A model generated the notes under the pieces. The model did no database searches. It was not told the DNA's origin and was given only the letters and a program-made list of their open reading frames with translations. Positions 44,769 through 51,783 of a DNA stretch of 64,000 nucleotides are shown here, one piece after another. The DNA lies in IMG/VR virus record IMGVR_UViG_3300036770_005357. One strand, 5' to 3'. Numbering within the stretch: position 1 is the first letter of the stretch; the number at the start of each line of letters is the position of its first letter. The DNA is from a virus. Taxonomy: Duplodnaviria > Caudoviricetes. A program made the translations under genes and the position numbers.

Positions 44769-45647
44769 ATGGACAACAATATAAACCAAACTATAATAGA
44801 AAAAGTAGCAATCAAAAGCGTGGCAATATATAAAGCAATAGCTATGTTACCACCACCAGAAATAAAGGACTTATGGGCAGAAAACAATTATACAAAACAG
44901 ACGCAGAACGACTTGAAGCTAGACGCGAAAGACAATTGCGTTACTATGAAAAAAACAAAAACAGAATTAACGCCGGTAGATTGGAAAGATATTACAAATC
45001 AAAACAAGAGCGGGATTTATAAAATAATAAACAAGATTGACGGCAAGTATTATGTAGGTAGAAGTTCCAATATTAAAAAAAGATGGAGATCTCATCGTAA
45101 TCTTTTAAGACAAAACAAACACAGTAATTGTCACCTACAAAGGGCTTGGAATCGTGATGGGGAATCGTCATTTGATTTTATTTTAGTTGAAGAAGTAATA
45201 CCGGATAAAAATATTCTAATAGATGTTGAAACTCGGTACATTAATAAGTTTGTAAATGATAGGAAAAACGGCATTGACGATTGTTACAACTTAAGCTTAA
45301 GTGCGGTTACAGGAAGTGTACCCGGTAATCAACACAGAAAAGGAAAACCTCATTCAATTGAAGATAGATTAAAAATATCTAAGGGACTGTTAGGCAACAC
45401 GAATACTAAAGGTAAATCTATTTCCGAAATACACAGACAAAAAATTATAATGAATGCGCCTAAAGGCAAAAATAATCATGCATTCAATAATAAAATTTAT
45501 AACTTCTTCAACAAAAATACAGGCGAAAGTTTTAGTGGTACACTCAGTGAACTTTTACAAAAAGAAAATATAAAAATAAATTCAGCGTTTCATAGAGTTA
45601 TCCGTGGCGAAAGAAATCATTACAAAGGATGGATATATAAACCCTAG
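44769..45647 (+). CDS. GIY-YIG homing endonuclease with overprinted N-terminus
   Basis: SGIYKIINKIDGKYYVG...RWRSHR...HLQRAWNR. Confidence 0.9.
   Translation: MDNNINQTIIEKVAIKSVAIYKAIAMLPPPEIKDLWAENNYTKQTQNDLKLDAKDNCVTMKKTKTELTPVDWKDITNQNKSGIYKIINKIDGKYYVGRSSNIKKRWRSHRNLLRQNKHSNCHLQRAWNRDGESSFDFILVEEVIPDKNILIDVETRYINKFVNDRKNGIDDCYNLSLSAVTGSVPGNQHRKGKPHSIEDRLKISKGLLGNTNTKGKSISEIHRQKIIMNAPKGKNNHAFNNKIYNFFNKNTGESFSGTLSELLQKENIKINSAFHRVIRGERNHYKGWIYKP
44873..45022 (+). CDS. Overlapping basic MGRK peptide, copy 1 (49 aa)
   Basis: MGRKQLYKTDAERLEARRERQLRYYEKNKNRINAGRLERYYKSKQERDL; homologous to 50970-51143. Confidence 0.7.
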   Translation: MGRKQLYKTDAERLEARRERQLRYYEKNKNRINAGRLERYYKSKQERDL

Positions 45648-45653
45648 AATGTC

Positions 45654-45845
45654 TCAATCCTCTGTATCAGCTTTTTCTACAGTGGGAGAGATGATGGGGA
45701 TACGGACAGTGAAGATGATGCGGCTAATTTCGTTGAAGACGATCTTGACAAAAGTGACCGTCAACAAATAAATCAACAATACAAAGGCAATTGCCATACA
45801 GTAATTGCTGATACTAGATGTAATATGTTTAAAAAACTCAGTCAT
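45654..45845 (-). CDS. Small TM protein
   Basis: ORF track. Confidence 0.5.
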   Translation of the reverse strand: MTEFFKHITSSISNYCMAIAFVLLIYLLTVTFVKIVFNEISRIIFTVRIPIISPTVEKADTED

Positions 45846-45872
45846 ATTAATTATGAATAGTGTTCTTGATTA

Positions 45873-46157
45873 TCAAAACCAGTAATACATTTCTATAGCT
45901 TCAGAACAGCGTGCTTTTGACCACAAAGCAGCAGACTTTTTCGCTATTGATTTGGTATTGTCACTTTCATCATATTCAAAATAATTCCGTTTACCACCGG
46001 GAGAAAATGCAACATATTGCATGTTATCAACATCGTGCCAATACTTTCCTTTAGCAAGTTGTTTTGCTTGTTTTACTTCAACCTTAGTAGCAAATTTACC
46101 ACTATATGGATTATATGGATTTATACAACCCGCTATAAACTTCTGTCGGCTAGTCAT
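45873..46157 (-). CDS. Hypothetical protein
   Basis: ORF track. Confidence 0.55.
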   Translation of the reverse strand: MTSRQKFIAGCINPYNPYSGKFATKVEVKQAKQLAKGKYWHDVDNMQYVAFSPGGKRNYFEYDESDNTKSIAKKSAALWSKARCSEAIEMYYWF

Positions 46158-46192
46158 ATCTTTTTATAGAATAAGGGGTATCCGCCTAAATG

Positions 46193-46519
46193 TCAAGCAA
46201 CCTTTGCTTCAATCTCAGCCAGTTTCTCAGCGGGAATCAAGCTAATAATTTGACGGGAATACTTAGGAAGCTTACGAAAAGCAATAACAAGTTGTTTAGG
46301 ACTAAGTGTGCGACCCTTGTTAATCTGTTCAGCAAACGAACTTAGTATAAAAGCATCAGTACCGTTGTATCCAACGCCATTGTCGTGTCCCGTGTTTTGA
46401 GCAATCTGCTCGTCAGTCGTCTGCCTCTCCCAGAGCTTCACGATAGCCCTCGTAGCCCAAGTCGGATTGGAGGAGAGCTGCTGCTTCACATATTCAACCA
46501 CTTTCGGATTCAGTTTCAT
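46193..46519 (-). CDS. Conserved early phage protein
   Basis: RAIVKLWERQTTDEQ...NGVGYNGTDAFILSSFAEQ...LSPKQ; promoter cassette. Confidence 0.75.
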   Translation of the reverse strand: MKLNPKVVEYVKQQLSSNPTWATRAIVKLWERQTTDEQIAQNTGHDNGVGYNGTDAFILSSFAEQINKGRTLSPKQLVIAFRKLPKYSRQIISLIPAEKLAEIEAKVA

Positions 46520-46548
46520 CGTGGAAACAGTCTACAGGCTTCTAGGGA

Positions 46549-49965: not shown

Positions 49966-50137
49966 GTACACACTCTACACTGCCCACCGAAGAAGTCAAG
50001 CTCCTCCAACCACTTTTTTTAAACTTCTTCCTTTATCGTTAAATTTACCCCACCCCACCCAATACCCTACCGAGACACCATCCAACAAACCAAAGAGGGC
50101 CTGGCGCAATCCTGGCGCTGCCAGGCCCCCGTCAACC

Positions 50138-50443
50138 TCAGACACCAGCCAGACTTTCCAGCTGGGTGTACTCCACACCCTCCTTGGGCGTCCAGTAGAG
50201 ATCCCGCTCGATCTTGAGGCCAAACGGTCCACGAACCGCCTCCAGACCCTCTAGAGACTCAATGCCACCCCATTCCACGCAACCCATACCCAGATCGGCG
50301 TAACCGTAAAGGATGCCATCCTCCATACCAGTGATCAACCAGGTGGCACGACCCCAAGGGGTGAACAGCTTGCAGATCGGATTCGTGTTGTTGTAGCCAG
50401 CCTTGTTGAGCTTGGCAGTCAGTTGTTTCGTCAGTAGCTTCAT
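50138..50443 (-). CDS. DUF2958-like protein
   Basis: KLFTPWGRATWLIT...LYGYADLGMGCVEWG...FGLKIERDLYW; start reassigned to MKLLTK. Confidence 0.85.
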   Translation of the reverse strand: MKLLTKQLTAKLNKAGYNNTNPICKLFTPWGRATWLITGMEDGILYGYADLGMGCVEWGGIESLEGLEAVRGPFGLKIERDLYWTPKEGVEYTQLESLAGV

Positions 50444-50477
50444 CGTGAGACAGACTCTAACAGCTTTTTTTAAAGTG

Positions 50478-50696
50478 TCAAGCCTCCACCAGTTCAACGG
50501 CAGTCAGCTTACCCTGAGCGATTCGGTAGTTCACCGGATCCTCGCTCTCAGCAGCCCGCACATCCTCAACCATCCACCAACGCATCCGAGTCTGCATCGC
50601 ACTCTCAAACGCTTCAACCTCGGTAGCAAACCGAAGACCATTGGTGGCCCACTTACCCTCTACCTTCACTTCCGGCTTCCATGACTTGTTGTTCAT
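50478..50696 (-). CDS. Early conserved small protein
   Basis: SWKPEVKVEGKWATNGLRFATEVEA; promoter cassette. Confidence 0.7.
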   Translation of the reverse strand: MNNKSWKPEVKVEGKWATNGLRFATEVEAFESAMQTRMRWWMVEDVRAAESEDPVNYRIAQGKLTAVELVEA

Positions 50697-50769
50697 ACGG
50701 GACACACTCTACACTGCCGACCGAGGAAGTCAAGCCCCCCTTGAACTTAAAAAAAGTGCTAGGTAGCGC

Positions 50770-50860
50770 TTGACTTCGGCACTGGCCCTGGTAGAGTGTA
50801 TCCAGATCGGCTGACCAAGCCAGGGTAGGGGACCAAGGGCTACCCGAATAGCGTTAACCT
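50770..50860 (+). repeat. Promoter plus G-rich element, copy 2 of 3
   Basis: TTGACT-N16-TAGAGT then CCAGATCGGCTGACCAAGCCAGGGTAGGGGACCAA...CGTTAA. Confidence 0.7.
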
Positions 50861-50934
50861 TAACGCACTTTTTTAACTTTTCTTCGTCGTTTTATTCCAC
50901 GATGAACTATTTATTAATTGACAAAGATATACTT

Positions 50935-51783
50935 ATGATCAACAATGAAATATTAGAGGAGTACTTTATATGGGACGAAAGAAGCTTAACAGAACACCAG
51001 ATGAATTGCGAGAACAGCGTAAACTCAGAGATAAACGATACTACGAACAACACAAAGATAAACTCAACGCAAATAGATTGGAGAGATATTACCGATCCAA
51101 AGTTAAGAAAGAAACTACGAAAGAAAGCTTGGCGGAAAGCTAATGAAGAAAAATTAAAAAAACAAAATAAAGCTTACTACGAAGCTAATAAAGATAAGAA
51201 CCGAGAATATCGTAAAGATTATAATAAAGCTTATAAAAAGGCTAATAAAGAAAAACAAAAAGCTTATAGTAAAGCTTATCGTGATGCTAACAGAGATAAA
51301 AGAAAAACATATCTTGAAGCTAATAAAGATAAACGAAACAAACATCGTAGAAATCGTAAAAAAACCGATATACAATATAAACTATCTAACAACTTGCGAT
51401 CCAGATTAAGAGATGCTATTAGATGTAATTACAAATCAGGCAGTGCAGTAAAAGATTTGGGTTGTAGTATTGAAGAACTTAAAGTTTATTTAGAAAGTAA
51501 GTTTCTACCGGGAATGACTTGGGACAATTATGGATTGTACGGATGGCATATAGATCACATAAAACCATTAGCTAGTTTTGATTTAAGTGATCGTAACCAA
51601 CTATTAGAAGCTTGTCACTACACAAACCTCCAACCGCTTTGGGCCAACGACAACCTATCCAAAGGCGATAAATTTATAAAAAATCCGCTTCAACCGCTTG
51701 ACTTCGGCACTAGTTCTGGTAAAGTAGTCCCAACAGCTGACAAAGCGAGGGTAGGGTACCAGGGGCTGCGTTTATTCCGTTAA
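50935..51783 (+). CDS. HNH homing endonuclease with K/Y-rich helical repeats and overprinted N-terminus
   Basis: LGCSIEELKVYLESKF.PGMTWDNYG..GWHIDHIKPLASFDL...CHYTNLQPLWA.DNLSK; start could be 50902 or 50935. Confidence 0.9.
   Translation: MINNEILEEYFIWDERSLTEHQMNCENSVNSEINDTTNNTKINSTQIDWRDITDPKLRKKLRKKAWRKANEEKLKKQNKAYYEANKDKNREYRKDYNKAYKKANKEKQKAYSKAYRDANRDKRKTYLEANKDKRNKHRRNRKKTDIQYKLSNNLRSRLRDAIRCNYKSGSAVKDLGCSIEELKVYLESKFLPGMTWDNYGLYGWHIDHIKPLASFDLSDRNQLLEACHYTNLQPLWANDNLSKGDKFIKNPLQPLDFGTSSGKVVPTADKARVGYQGLRLFR
50970..51143 (+). CDS. Overlapping basic MGRK peptide, copy 2 (57 aa)
   Basis: MGRKKLNRTPDELREQRKLRDKRYYEQHKDKLNANRLERYYRSKVKKETTKESLAES. Confidence 0.7.
   Translation: MGRKKLNRTPDELREQRKLRDKRYYEQHKDKLNANRLERYYRSKVKKETTKESLAES

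What the first reader, a model, noticed from the sequence alone, without database searches (positions are those of the whole stretch)
44769..51783. Two unrelated homing endonucleases (GIY-YIG and HNH) carry the same overprinted MGRK ORF in the same frame offset
Seen: 44873-45022 and 50970-51143 encode MGRK.L..T..E..E.R..R..RYYE..K...NA.RLERYY.SK. Each lies inside the 5' part of a nuclease ORF, with the nuclease in the +1 frame. The MGRK frame is conserved between the two loci. The nuclease-frame translation of the same DNA is not, apart from W and DW(K/R)DIT, yet it stays stop-free in both. Both loci share AGATTGGA(A/G)AGATATTAC just before the nuclease body. Inference: either a programmed +1 frameshift fuses a basic DNA-binding helix to the nuclease, or the peptide is a translational attenuator or inhibitor module shuffled between endonuclease families. 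Standard gene callers would miss it.
Basis: partly seen in the sequence, partly recalled or inferred. Interest (0 to 1): 0.75.

Follow-up and report, generated by a model that had tools for sequence, protein, structure and literature searches.

The report
Small DNA-binder gene overprinted on homing nucleases
Two mobile nuclease genes in this uncultured phage, and over 120 like them in water metagenomes, carry the same portable front end, a tiny conserved basic protein gene laid over the start of the nuclease gene in another reading frame, which most likely encodes a DNA-binding regulator rather than a frameshift site.

Summary
Both MGRK ORFs (44873-45022, 50970-51143) lie in the 5' part of a nuclease ORF (GIY-YIG 44769-45647; HNH-like 50902-51783) that runs in the +1 frame.

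Across 130 distinct loci from viral and metagenome contigs, 126 show a 44-60 aa MGRK ORF beside a long +1 ORF. Only 2 are in-frame fusions. Only the MGRK frame is conserved as protein. The nuclease frame is merely kept open: 19 stops against 63±6 expected.

A programmed +1 frameshift is not supported:
- There is no conserved shift site.
- Every out-of-frame nuclease has its own reachable ATG.
- In two lineages the GIY motif shares codons with the conserved end of MGRK.

Best reading: two overlapping genes in a portable cassette. Upstream lie direct repeats whose core co-varies with MGRK residues 16, 17, 18 and 21 on one face of a predicted long helix. This suggests that MGRK binds its own promoter region as an autoregulator.

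The cassette is mobile, being absent in relatives. Its 5' module is swapped between nuclease families exactly at the shared 18-mer.

Binding, transcript starts and translation products are untested. No published description was found.

The parts
44636..45653 (+). Free-standing GIY-YIG homing cassette, present or absent as a unit
   Evidence: Contigs of two other runs (X5 marine, X7 freshwater) join 44635 to 45654, with 40 other letters in place of these 1018 bases. In L029 the same site is empty.
44714..44756 (+). Operator-like direct repeat TCCTCTAC x2 (44714-44721, 44728-44735), an A/T box (44736-47) and an inverted copy GTAGAGG (44750-44756)
   Evidence: Read and the repeat scan. The same repeat-plus-box layout stands upstream of MGRK in most related loci. 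The core TCTAC goes with MGRK residues (E/A)RR.RQ.
44769..45647 (+). Nuclease ORF (292 aa), +1 frame relative to MGRK. Possible starts are 44769, 44844 and 44946. The GIY-YIG domain is at about 45009-45254, followed by a weak NUMOD3-like DNA-binding tail.
   Evidence: Pfam PF01541 E 2.3e-12 on residues 81-162. PHROG 314 homing endonuclease 5e-31. Cultured-phage relatives align only from residue about 81.
44873..45022 (+). MGRK ORF (49 aa): a conserved 44-aa basic module plus a short variable tail. AAGGA lies just upstream of the ATG.
   Evidence: AlphaFold2 with 69 sequences gives pLDDT 91.8, an N-terminal arm (1-9) and one helix (10-43).
44978..44995 (+). 18-mer AGATTGGAAAGATATTAC (RLERYY in MGRK frame, DWKDIT in nuclease frame): the module boundary and crossover point
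   Evidence: L029 is 97.5% identical up to 44995, then switches to an HNH-type body. An X6 contig holds 44702-44995 but not 45068-45334.
50874..51695 (+). HNH-type homing cassette (approximate limits), bracketed by a duplicated 31-nt promoter-like element (50767-50797 and 51695-51725)
   Evidence: Loose ends of contigs at 50873 (X4) and 51696 (X5, X7), with a depth drop over 50942-51475. Repeat family D7.
50883..50946 (+). Degenerate repeat TTCGTCG / CACGATG with a TATTTAT box (50908-50914), then a sigma-70-like TTGACA (50918) -17- AACAAT (50946). The nuclease-frame ATG at 50935 lies in that spacer.
   Evidence: The core CGTCG goes with MGRK residues Q(K/R)(R/K).RD.
50902..51783 (+). HNH-like nuclease ORF (293 aa), +1 frame relative to MGRK. 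Possible starts are 50902, 50935 and 51001. Tyr/Asn/Lys-rich helical repeats lie at 51114-51338 and the His-Me-finger region at about 51514-51681. The last codons, from about residue 270, read into flanking DNA.
   Evidence: PHROG 1035 endonuclease VII 8e-7 and PHROG 28061. 39% identity over 213 aa (E 2e-39) to the in-frame homologue P0026, ending at residue 269. Repeat family D2.
50970..51143 (+). MGRK ORF (57 aa), with GAGGAG at 50956-50961 upstream
   Evidence: It was the query that retrieved 80 viral loci.
51075..51092 (+). 18-mer AGATTGGAGAGATATTAC, the module boundary

Best explanation
Each locus is a mobile, free-standing homing-endonuclease cassette with a portable 5' module.

The module has three parts:
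1. A pair of short direct repeats (period usually 15 nt), followed by the phage's usual A/T gene-start box.
2. A small gene for a 44-aa basic protein, with an extended MGRKKLNRT arm and one long helix.
3. The beginning of the nuclease ORF, laid over the small gene in the +1 frame.

The two ORFs are translated separately, each from its own ATG.
- In 'type II' loci, which include both window loci, a nuclease-frame ATG lies upstream of the MGRK ATG. The nuclease then carries an unconserved leader read from the +1 frame of the MGRK DNA.
- In 'type I' loci the MGRK ATG comes first and the nuclease starts at an ATG inside the MGRK ORF.

The MGRK protein is inferred to be a sequence-specific DNA binder. 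It would recognise the direct repeats in its own promoter region and so regulate transcription of itself and the nuclease. In function this resembles the controller proteins of restriction-modification systems, or I-TevI autorepression.

Recombination at the conserved end of the module moves it between nuclease families while keeping the frame relation.

Shown here: layout, conservation, stop depletion, the ATG rule, repeat-residue co-variation, mobility and module exchange.

Inferred: separate translation, DNA binding, and the direction and timing of regulation.
For: Generality:
- 69 distinct viral loci and 61 further metagenome loci carry the module.
- 126 of these 130 have a 44-60 aa MGRK ORF with a long ORF in the +1 frame; none has the nuclease body in the +2 frame.
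- 2 loci are in-frame fusions and 2 more have a truncated +1 ORF.

Which frame codes:
- The MGRK frame is the conserved one: 53% amino-acid identity against 35% and 36%.
- Codon-position entropy is 0.99/0.76/1.17, so the nuclease frame's second position is the most variable.
- The nuclease frame is nonetheless stop-depleted: 19 stops against 63±6.

The nuclease needs its own ATG:
- Type I loci: 26/27 have an internal nuclease-frame ATG. The single exception, L058, is an in-frame fusion.
- Type II loci: 44/102 have one (Fisher p = 8e-5 in the first set).
- In L010, L049 and L140 the ATG sits directly before the nuclease body (in L049, before the GIY motif).

Gene-start context:
- In both types the first ATG lies 4-7 nt after the TATTTAT-like box.
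- In this window the same box-plus-ATG layout precedes at least 12 ordinary genes, and only 4 of 33 genes have a Shine-Dalgarno core.

DNA binding:
- The upstream repeat core differs between loci, and its two copies change together.
- Mutual information with the core, as a share of column entropy, is 0.81, 0.81, 0.66 and 0.86 (z 7-16) for MGRK columns 16, 17, 18 and 21.
- Equally variable columns 10, 19, 26, 30, 34, 38 and 43 give 0.38-0.55.
- Columns 17 and 21 are one helical turn apart in a confident model.
- The residue-to-core rules held in the second set (32/41 by script; most misses were mislocated boxes) and in the in-frame homologue P0026 (QNR with TCTAACG).

Mobility and exchange.

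In-frame homologues (P0026, P0047, P0123, P0137, L058) show that the module can serve as the N-terminal domain of a nuclease, as a DNA-binding part would.
Against: - There are no transcript or protein data, because no RNA run holds this DNA.
- Repeat-residue co-variation could partly reflect linkage of adjacent DNA in related sequences. I assigned the repeat classes by eye from the DNA.
- The model is a lone helix with no match among solved structures, so the fold gives no independent support for DNA binding.
- Most type II loci have no Shine-Dalgarno sequence and no box before the MGRK ATG, so how it is initiated there is unexplained.
- The nuclease would carry an unconserved leader, about 3-33 aa in type I loci and roughly 50-110 aa in type II, whose tolerance is assumed.
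- Sigma-70-like promoters inside the leaders might exclude the upstream nuclease ATGs from some transcripts.
Confidence: 0.55

Rival explanations
1. Programmed +1 ribosomal frameshift. Ribosomes start at the MGRK ATG and shift +1 within the few codons after R-Y-(Y/W)-x-x-K, fusing the basic helix to the nuclease. This could act alone or alongside independent initiation, giving three products as in IS3 OrfA/OrfB/OrfAB.
For: - The frame relation is fixed at +1 in about 97% of 130 loci.
- In-frame homologues exist in which the module is the N-terminal domain of the same nuclease types (P0026 against the window HNH body, 39% identity; also L058 against L075).
- A Lys codon (AAA or AAG) is conserved 3 codons after the aromatic residue, and many GIY loci have AAG followed by the rare CGG.
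Against: - No common shift site exists. The bases between the last MGRK-conserved codon and the first nuclease-conserved codon differ by class (AAT G, ACA A, AAC G, AAA G, AAG C) and rarely allow re-pairing.
- The AAG CGG pair is explained by dual coding: Lys44 in one frame, Ser-Gly of SGIY in the other.
- Stop depletion of the +1 frame across the whole MGRK part, and the rule that every out-of-frame nuclease has its own ATG, are not expected under frameshift alone.
- In L076 the GIY codons are the RYL codons, so a fusion cannot keep both. In L064 the G codon of GIY overlaps the W codon, so a fusion would lose it.
- ARAGORN reports only triplet anticodons for the window's 15 tRNAs.
Confidence: 0.15
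2. MGRK is a separate subunit that binds the nuclease protein, either as a targeting partner or as an inhibitor/immunity factor, rather than acting on the promoter.
For: - It is always encoded together with a nuclease, and in a few homologues it is fused to one.
Against: - The same module serves at least four unrelated nuclease folds and is exchanged between them, which is hard to reconcile with a specific protein-protein interface.
- Its variable residues track the upstream DNA repeats, not the nuclease type.
Confidence: 0.1
3. The small ORF acts only in cis as a translational attenuator: its translation, not its product, controls nuclease-frame ribosomes.
For: - The two start codons lie 5-104 nt apart on the same leader.
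- In many type II loci the MGRK ATG has no obvious initiation signal.
Against: - The peptide is conserved at the amino-acid level over 130 loci and 222 database clusters, with an invariant N-terminal arm and helix-face residues.
- A sequence-independent attenuator would not be conserved in this way.
Confidence: 0.07
4. The split is decay or error: frameshifted pseudogenes of an ancestral fusion, or assembly indels.
For: A few loci do look decayed: L021, L029, L044/L046 and L045 have truncated bodies.
Against: - The same +1 layout recurs in about 126 distinct sequences from many samples and assemblers, and intact 170-310 codon nuclease ORFs follow.
- Four runs hold the window's version.
- Stop depletion and the ATG rule indicate selection.
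Confidence: 0.03

Closest known systems
Controller (C) proteins of type II restriction-modification systems, e.g. C.PvuII (PMC2997769, PMC2175313)
   Same: - A small DNA-binding regulator gene sits directly upstream of, and overlaps, the gene of a potentially toxic nuclease.
- Repeated operator boxes lie in its own promoter.
- The two overlapping genes are translated independently (abstract of PMC2997769).
- The unit is mobile.
- From my own recollection, not checked here: C.PvuII-dependent transcripts are leaderless.
   Different: - C proteins are about 80-aa helix-turn-helix dimers binding palindromic C-boxes, and the overlap is about ±20 nt.
- MGRK is a 44-aa arm plus a single predicted helix with no Pfam match, and its repeats are direct.
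- The overlap here is the whole small gene (130-170 nt) in a fixed +1 frame.
- The partner is a homing nuclease with no methyltransferase.
Transcriptional autorepression by phage T4 intron endonuclease I-TevI (review PMC2988022; Edgell et al. 2004 as cited there)
   Same: Expression of a GIY-YIG homing endonuclease is limited by a DNA-binding part that recognises an operator overlapping its own promoter.
   Different: - In I-TevI the nuclease's own C-terminal DNA-binding domain does this, and the operator resembles the homing site.
- Here a separate, overprinted small protein is proposed to do it.
- The rare in-frame fusions would be the closer analogue.
IS3/IS1-family insertion sequences: OrfA, OrfB and the OrfAB frameshift product (my own knowledge)
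   Same: A small 5' ORF for a DNA-binding regulator overlaps a catalytic ORF in another frame within a mobile element.
   Different: - IS3 uses a -1 shift at a conserved A-AAA-AAG-type site and OrfB lacks an efficient start.
- Here the offset is +1, no shift site is conserved, and the nuclease frame always has an ATG.
Overprinted gene pairs of small phages, e.g. MS2 lysis gene or phiX174 genes (my own knowledge)
   Same: Two proteins are read from one stretch of DNA in different frames. One frame is conserved and the other is compositionally odd and poorly conserved.
   Different: Here the overprinted stretch is a portable module found in front of several unrelated genes, and the poorly conserved frame is only a leader for a conserved enzyme.

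Membership tests
GIY-YIG homing endonuclease (ORF 44769-45647) | GIY-YIG catalytic domain above Pfam's curated cut-off | tested here: met
   PF01541 scores 47.5 bits against a cut-off of 22.6, E 2.3e-12, residues 81-162. PHROG 314 homing endonuclease, 5e-31.
GIY-YIG homing endonuclease (ORF 44769-45647) | Mobile, with presence/absence polymorphism at an intergenic site | tested here: met
   Contigs of two other runs join 44635 to 45654 without the cassette. L029 has the site empty.
HNH / His-Me finger endonuclease (ORF 50902-51783) | Match to a curated HNH profile | tested here: inconclusive
   No Pfam family at E<=1 other than a chance-level hit. PHROG 1035 'endonuclease VII' 8e-7 and PHROG 28061 7.7e-8 on residues 205-258. 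An H-x-D-H ... N ... N pattern is visible by eye and shared with P0026.
Programmed +1 ribosomal frameshift site (prfB / Ty1 / Ty3 type) | Conserved shift site: a re-pairing P-site codon followed by a stop or a rare codon | tested here: not met
   Junction codons of 69 loci show no common site, and the A-frame stop lies 1-16 codons beyond the junction.
Programmed +1 ribosomal frameshift site (prfB / Ty1 / Ty3 type) | Downstream frame has no start of its own and is unconstrained upstream of the shift site | tested here: not met
   Every out-of-frame locus has a nuclease-frame ATG. The +1 frame is stop-depleted over all 44 MGRK codons.
Programmed +1 ribosomal frameshift site (prfB / Ty1 / Ty3 type) | Fusion product detected | not testable with these tools
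   No RNA or protein data are available.
Dual-coding (overprinted) gene pair | Two overlapping ORFs, each with a start codon; the alternative frame is stop-depleted beyond what codon usage explains | tested here: met
Dual-coding (overprinted) gene pair | Both frames actually translated | not testable with these tools
   Inferred from conservation of the MGRK frame, and from the ATG and openness of the nuclease frame.
R-M controller (C) protein family | Xre-type helix-turn-helix fold | tested here: not met
   No Pfam match. The AlphaFold2 model is one arm plus a single 34-residue helix.
R-M controller (C) protein family | Palindromic C-box operators upstream of its own gene | tested here: not met
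   The repeats are direct, with a period of 15 nt or 12 nt. The cassette works like a C-protein unit but is not a member.
Sequence-specific DNA-binding protein (MGRK module) | Specificity residues co-vary with a nearby DNA site | tested here: met
   Columns 16, 17, 18 and 21 against the repeat core. The rules held in a second set and in P0026. Linkage cannot be fully excluded.
Sequence-specific DNA-binding protein (MGRK module) | Binding shown | not testable with these tools
   Needs gel-shift or footprint assays.

The most novel reading that the evidence does not exclude
One 5' module yields three products, as in IS3 elements but by other means: the free MGRK DNA-binder, the nuclease from its own ATG, and a low-level MGRK-nuclease fusion made by a +1 shift at a site with no canonical slippery sequence. 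Alternative transcript starts (the phage box against an internal sigma-70-like promoter) would decide which overlapping frame meets the ribosome first, and so time the nuclease.
Probability: 0.15. Interest if true: 0.85.

Novelty: new variant of a known kind. Interest (0 to 1): 0.62.

Why it matters
How free-standing homing endonucleases are restrained and retargeted is known mainly from T4. This finding adds four things.

- It describes a widespread, apparently undescribed protein family: 222 clusters at 50% identity, no Pfam family, no named relative, and no paper containing the motif.
- The family forms a portable control module for at least four nuclease families in uncultured freshwater, marine and subsurface phages.
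- It is a clean natural case of overprinting in which the second frame is selected only to stay open. Standard gene callers annotate one ORF or the other, so nuclease N-termini in these phages are probably mis-described.
- If residues 16, 17, 18 and 21 of a single helix do read a 5-bp core, as the co-variation suggests, this would be a very small DNA-recognition unit with a readable code. That is directly testable with synthetic peptides.

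Tried and rejected
- **Phage database, DNA and MGRK peptides.** Megablast of 44000-52000 and tblastn of both MGRK peptides against 50,697 phage records found nothing. The low-complexity filter may hide the peptides.
- **Window's own genome.** None is held.
- **Closest cultured relative.** The helicase's best hit is 29% identity, so no host could be assigned.
- **Protein search at similar length.** It found 8 unnamed metagenome proteins only.
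- **Fold search.** Foldseek against the PDB gave no match for the single-helix model.
- **ESM Atlas.** Only unnamed viral clusters came up. A weak lead to a cluster in which 14% of members carry an AT-hook was not pursued.
- **RNA data.** No RNA holder was listed for the stretch, so transcript starts, RNA-level slippage and expression could not be examined.
- **Complex prediction.** MGRK with the GIY-YIG body gave no verdict, score 0.00.
- **Transcriptional slippage.** Rejected, because the junctions have no long homopolymer run.
- **Quadruplet decoding by a phage tRNA.** Considered because of odd tRNA lengths. ARAGORN lists only triplet anticodons, and the loci occur in many different phages.
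- **The upstream direct-repeat motif as a general phage promoter.** Rejected, because in the window the repeat pair occurs only at the cassette. The A/T box alone is general.
- **Shine-Dalgarno support for the MGRK start.** Present in only 8/48 type II and 0/20 type I loci, and in 4/33 window genes, so it is uninformative in this phage.
- **Codon-position test on the 35-codon nuclease-frame extension of the window's GIY subfamily.** Too little divergence to decide (0.30/0.32/0.34).
- **Literature searches.** None found a prior description.

Full report
**1. The observation.**
The window is an AT-rich (34% GC) phage-like contig with 15 tRNA genes and a tmRNA. It has no close relative among deposited phages.

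ORFs 44873-45022 (49 aa) and 50970-51143 (57 aa) both begin MGRK and are 51% identical. Each lies in the 5' part of a longer ORF:
- 44769-45647 is a GIY-YIG homing endonuclease (Pfam E 2.3e-12 on residues 81-162; PHROG 314).
- 50902-51783 is HNH/endonuclease VII-like (PHROG 1035, 8e-7).

In both, the nuclease frame is +1 to the MGRK frame. The 18-mer AGATTGGA(A/G)AGATATTAC sits at 44978-44995 and 51075-51092.

**2. How general it is.**
A scan of viral contigs with the 57-aa peptide returned 80 loci, 69 of them distinct once the two window loci are added.
- In all but a handful, the MGRK frame stops after 45-60 codons, and the +1 frame runs on for 170-310 codons into a nuclease body.
- The bodies belong to several kinds: the SGIYKIINK type and two other GIY-YIG types, Cys-x2-Cys zinc-finger proteins, HNH proteins with Tyr/Asn/Lys-rich repeats, and others.
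- Only L058/L059 and L044/L046 continue in frame. None has the nuclease body in the +2 frame.

A second, separate scan of metagenome contigs gave 61 further distinct loci, and all 61 have the same layout. A profile search of 1.84 billion representative proteins found 222 clusters. About nine in ten of the 150 listed are 44-83 aa stand-alone calls, and all carry no name.

**3. Which frame is under selection.**
Across the first 44 codons, mean pairwise amino-acid identity is 53% in the MGRK frame. It is 35% in the nuclease frame and 36% in the third frame. Column entropy by MGRK codon position is 0.99/0.76/1.17. The nuclease frame's second codon position is therefore the most variable, which means the nuclease-frame peptide is not conserved.

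Yet the nuclease frame is kept open. It has 19 stops in 69 loci, against 62.8±6.0 when synonymous codons are redrawn from the pooled usage. 54 loci are open, against 26±3.7. The third frame matches its null (333 against 320±13). Thirteen of the 19 stops sit at codon 6.

**4. Frameshift or separate starts.**
Four results speak against a programmed +1 frameshift as the route to the nuclease.

- **(a) No conserved shift site.** MGRK-frame conservation runs to R-Y-(Y/W/H/F)-x-x-K, and the nuclease-frame motif starts 0-6 codons later. The intervening bases differ by class and rarely allow re-pairing. The frequent AAG CGG is what dual coding demands: Lys44 in one frame, Ser-Gly of SGIY in the other.
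- **(b) Openness along the whole MGRK part.** A shift at its 3' end would not require this.
- **(c) The ATG rule.** Loci fall into two types.
  - In type II (102 loci, both window loci included) a nuclease-frame ATG lies upstream of the MGRK ATG and the frame is open from there.
  - In type I (27 loci) there is none, and the nuclease frame is often closed at codon 6.
  - 26 of 27 type I loci have an internal nuclease-frame ATG after the last stop, against 44 of 102 type II loci.
  - The one exception is L058, the in-frame fusion, which needs none (Fisher p = 8e-5 in the first set).
  - Where the open stretch is only a few codons (L010, L049, L140), the ATG sits immediately before the nuclease body; in L049 it stands just before the GIY motif.
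- **(d) Shared codons.** In L076 the GIY codons occupy the same bases as the conserved RYL codons of MGRK, so no fusion could keep both. In L064 the G codon of GIY overlaps the W codon, so a fusion would lose that residue.

I therefore read the pair as two overlapping genes with separate starts. A low-level fusion product cannot be excluded. Rare in-frame homologues show the module is compatible with being a nuclease's N-terminal domain. One is P0026, whose body is 39% identical to the window's HNH ORF (E 2e-39). Others are P0047, P0123 and P0137.

**5. The start context.**
In both types the first ATG lies 4-7 nt after a TATTTAT-like box. This is how ordinary genes of this phage begin. TATATTTAT plus 4-7 nt plus ATG precedes at least a dozen long ORFs in the window, and only 4 of 33 genes have a Shine-Dalgarno core.

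The spacing would suit leaderless or near-leaderless transcripts, but that is inference. In P0026's locus a consensus TATAAT stands 5 nt before the ATG.

Both window loci also hold a sigma-70-like promoter inside the leader:
- TGGACA-16-TATAAT at 44770-44797.
- TTGACA-17-AACAAT at 50918-50946.

Either would give transcripts lacking the first nuclease-frame ATG. The HNH-class loci share this feature. Transcript start may thus decide which frame is met first. This is speculation that 5' mapping would settle. The true nuclease start is therefore uncertain: 44769, 44844 or 44946 for GIY, and 50902, 50935 or 51001 for HNH.

**6. What the small protein may do.**
AlphaFold2 with 69 sequences predicts an extended arm (residues 1-9, nearly invariant MGRKKLNRT) and one helix (10-43), at pLDDT 91.8. 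No Pfam, PHROG or solved-structure relative was found.

Upstream of the box stands a pair of direct repeats, with a period of 15 nt or sometimes 12 nt. The 5-6 nt core differs between loci, while its two copies stay alike. In the window this repeat pair occurs only at the cassette, so it is not a general phage signal.

The core class predicts particular MGRK residues:

| Repeat core | MGRK residues 16-21 |
|---|---|
| TTCAC | Q(S/W)N.RS |
| GTCAC | QWR.RR |
| ATGAC | QQR.RA |
| TAACG | QNR.R |
| TAATG | LNR.R |
| TCTAC (window GIY locus) | (E/A)RR.RQ |
| CGTCG (window HNH locus) | Q(K/R)(R/K).RD |

- Mutual information with the core, as a share of column entropy, is 0.81, 0.81, 0.66 and 0.86 for columns 16, 17, 18 and 21 (z 7-16).
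- For the other highly variable columns it is 0.38-0.55, including columns that lie nearer the promoter.
- Columns 17 and 21 are one helical turn apart and flank the invariant Arg20.
- Within the HNH class, which shares a nearly identical C-terminal half of the module, residues 16-21 and the core change together.
- The rules held in the second set and in P0026.

I take this as good, though not conclusive, evidence that the peptide reads its own upstream repeats. Since the repeats cover the region just upstream of the start box, it would regulate transcription of itself and the nuclease. Whether it represses or activates is unknown.

**7. Mobility and shuffling.**
- Contigs from a marine and a freshwater run join 44635 to 45654, with 40 other letters in between. 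The whole unit of repeats, MGRK and nuclease is therefore one insertion.
- The HNH unit ends near 50873 and 51696 and is bracketed by a duplicated 31-nt promoter-like element. Its ORF reads on into that flank beyond the end of homology with P0026.
- L029, from a related phage, has the GIY site empty. At a neighbouring site it carries a cassette whose 5' part is 97.5% identical to 44674-44995. From the next base on, it has an HNH-type body 77% identical to the window's.
- A freshwater contig likewise holds 44702-44995 without the GIY body.

The shared 18-mer is thus a crossover point at the module boundary. That explains how one module comes to head unrelated nucleases in the same frame relation.

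**8. Why +1.**
The +1 reading of this Lys/Arg/Glu-rich DNA is nearly stop-free even by chance (about one stop per locus in the null). The +2 reading has about five stops. A body joined in +1 can therefore acquire a start upstream or inside the module; a body joined in +2 cannot. This is my inference about origin. Selection then removed the remaining stops.

**9. Comparison with the known.**
- The cassette works like a controller-protein unit of restriction-modification systems: a small autoregulator whose gene overlaps that of a dangerous nuclease, translated independently (PMC2997769, PMC2175313).
- It also works like I-TevI autorepression at an operator over its own promoter (PMC2988022).
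- It is not a member of the C-protein family, having no helix-turn-helix and no palindromic boxes.
- It does not meet the defining features of a programmed +1 frameshift or of IS3-type -1 frameshifting.
- I found no paper mentioning the motif.

**10. Verdict.**
The finding is real, widespread and apparently undescribed. The frameshift reading is unlikely (about 0.15). The best-supported reading is a portable, overprinted regulator gene, at overall confidence 0.55. Within that, the overlapping-genes part is firmer than the DNA-binding part, and the DNA-binding part is firmer than the direction of regulation.

Noticed in passing
window 8286-62401 (e.g. 13102, 24549, 24799, 56841, 59590, 60173, 62387): Many ordinary genes begin with TATATTTAT, then 4-7 nt, then ATG, with no Shine-Dalgarno sequence (only 4 of 33 long ORFs have an SD core). 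This is a phage-wide gene-start signal that would fit leaderless transcripts.
   Followed up: partly
window 46514-50738, minus strand: A small-ORF region in which about a dozen intergenic copies of a 27-51 nt element read, on the minus strand, as TTGACA, about 17 nt, TAGACT-like, then a start codon. Each small gene seems to have its own host-type (early?) promoter.
   Followed up: no
window 50767-50797 and 51695-51725: A 31-nt promoter-like element (TTGACT-16-TAGAGT) is duplicated on either side of the HNH cassette. The HNH ORF's last codons, from about residue 270, read into the flank that holds the second copy.
   Followed up: partly
window 46527-46601 and 47074-47148: Two 75-nt copies (89% identical) of a non-coding element, each downstream of a small minus-strand gene.
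   Followed up: no
window 18710-30821, 41201, 47801: The window holds 15 tRNA genes and a tmRNA with tag AEDNVISYDFSYDDVVALAA. Several tRNAs are unusually long (Pro 79, Cys 81, Thr 92 nt).
   Followed up: no
window 44729-44756: The second operator-like repeat CCTCTAC and an inverted copy GTAGAGG could form a hairpin. It would cover the GAGG that lies 12 nt before the nuclease-frame ATG at 44769.
   Followed up: no
proteins P0060, P0109, P0149: Proteins of 232-393 aa carry two MGRK-like modules (MGRK.LY.T.EE...R.R..YY) followed by Ala/Gln/Ser-rich sequence. Their composition looks eukaryotic (fungal?), suggesting the module exists outside phages.
   Followed up: no
protein P0072: A 189-aa call runs from a nuclease-frame leader through a truncated GIY-YIG domain into a second MGRK-like module at its C-terminus. 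It may reflect tandem or decayed cassettes.
   Followed up: no
window 51114-51338: The HNH ORF's own N-terminal half consists of about 6 repeats (units of 33-45 nt) of a Tyr/Asn/Lys motif. This motif resembles the MGRK helix, and P0026's MGRK module aligns to it.
   Followed up: partly
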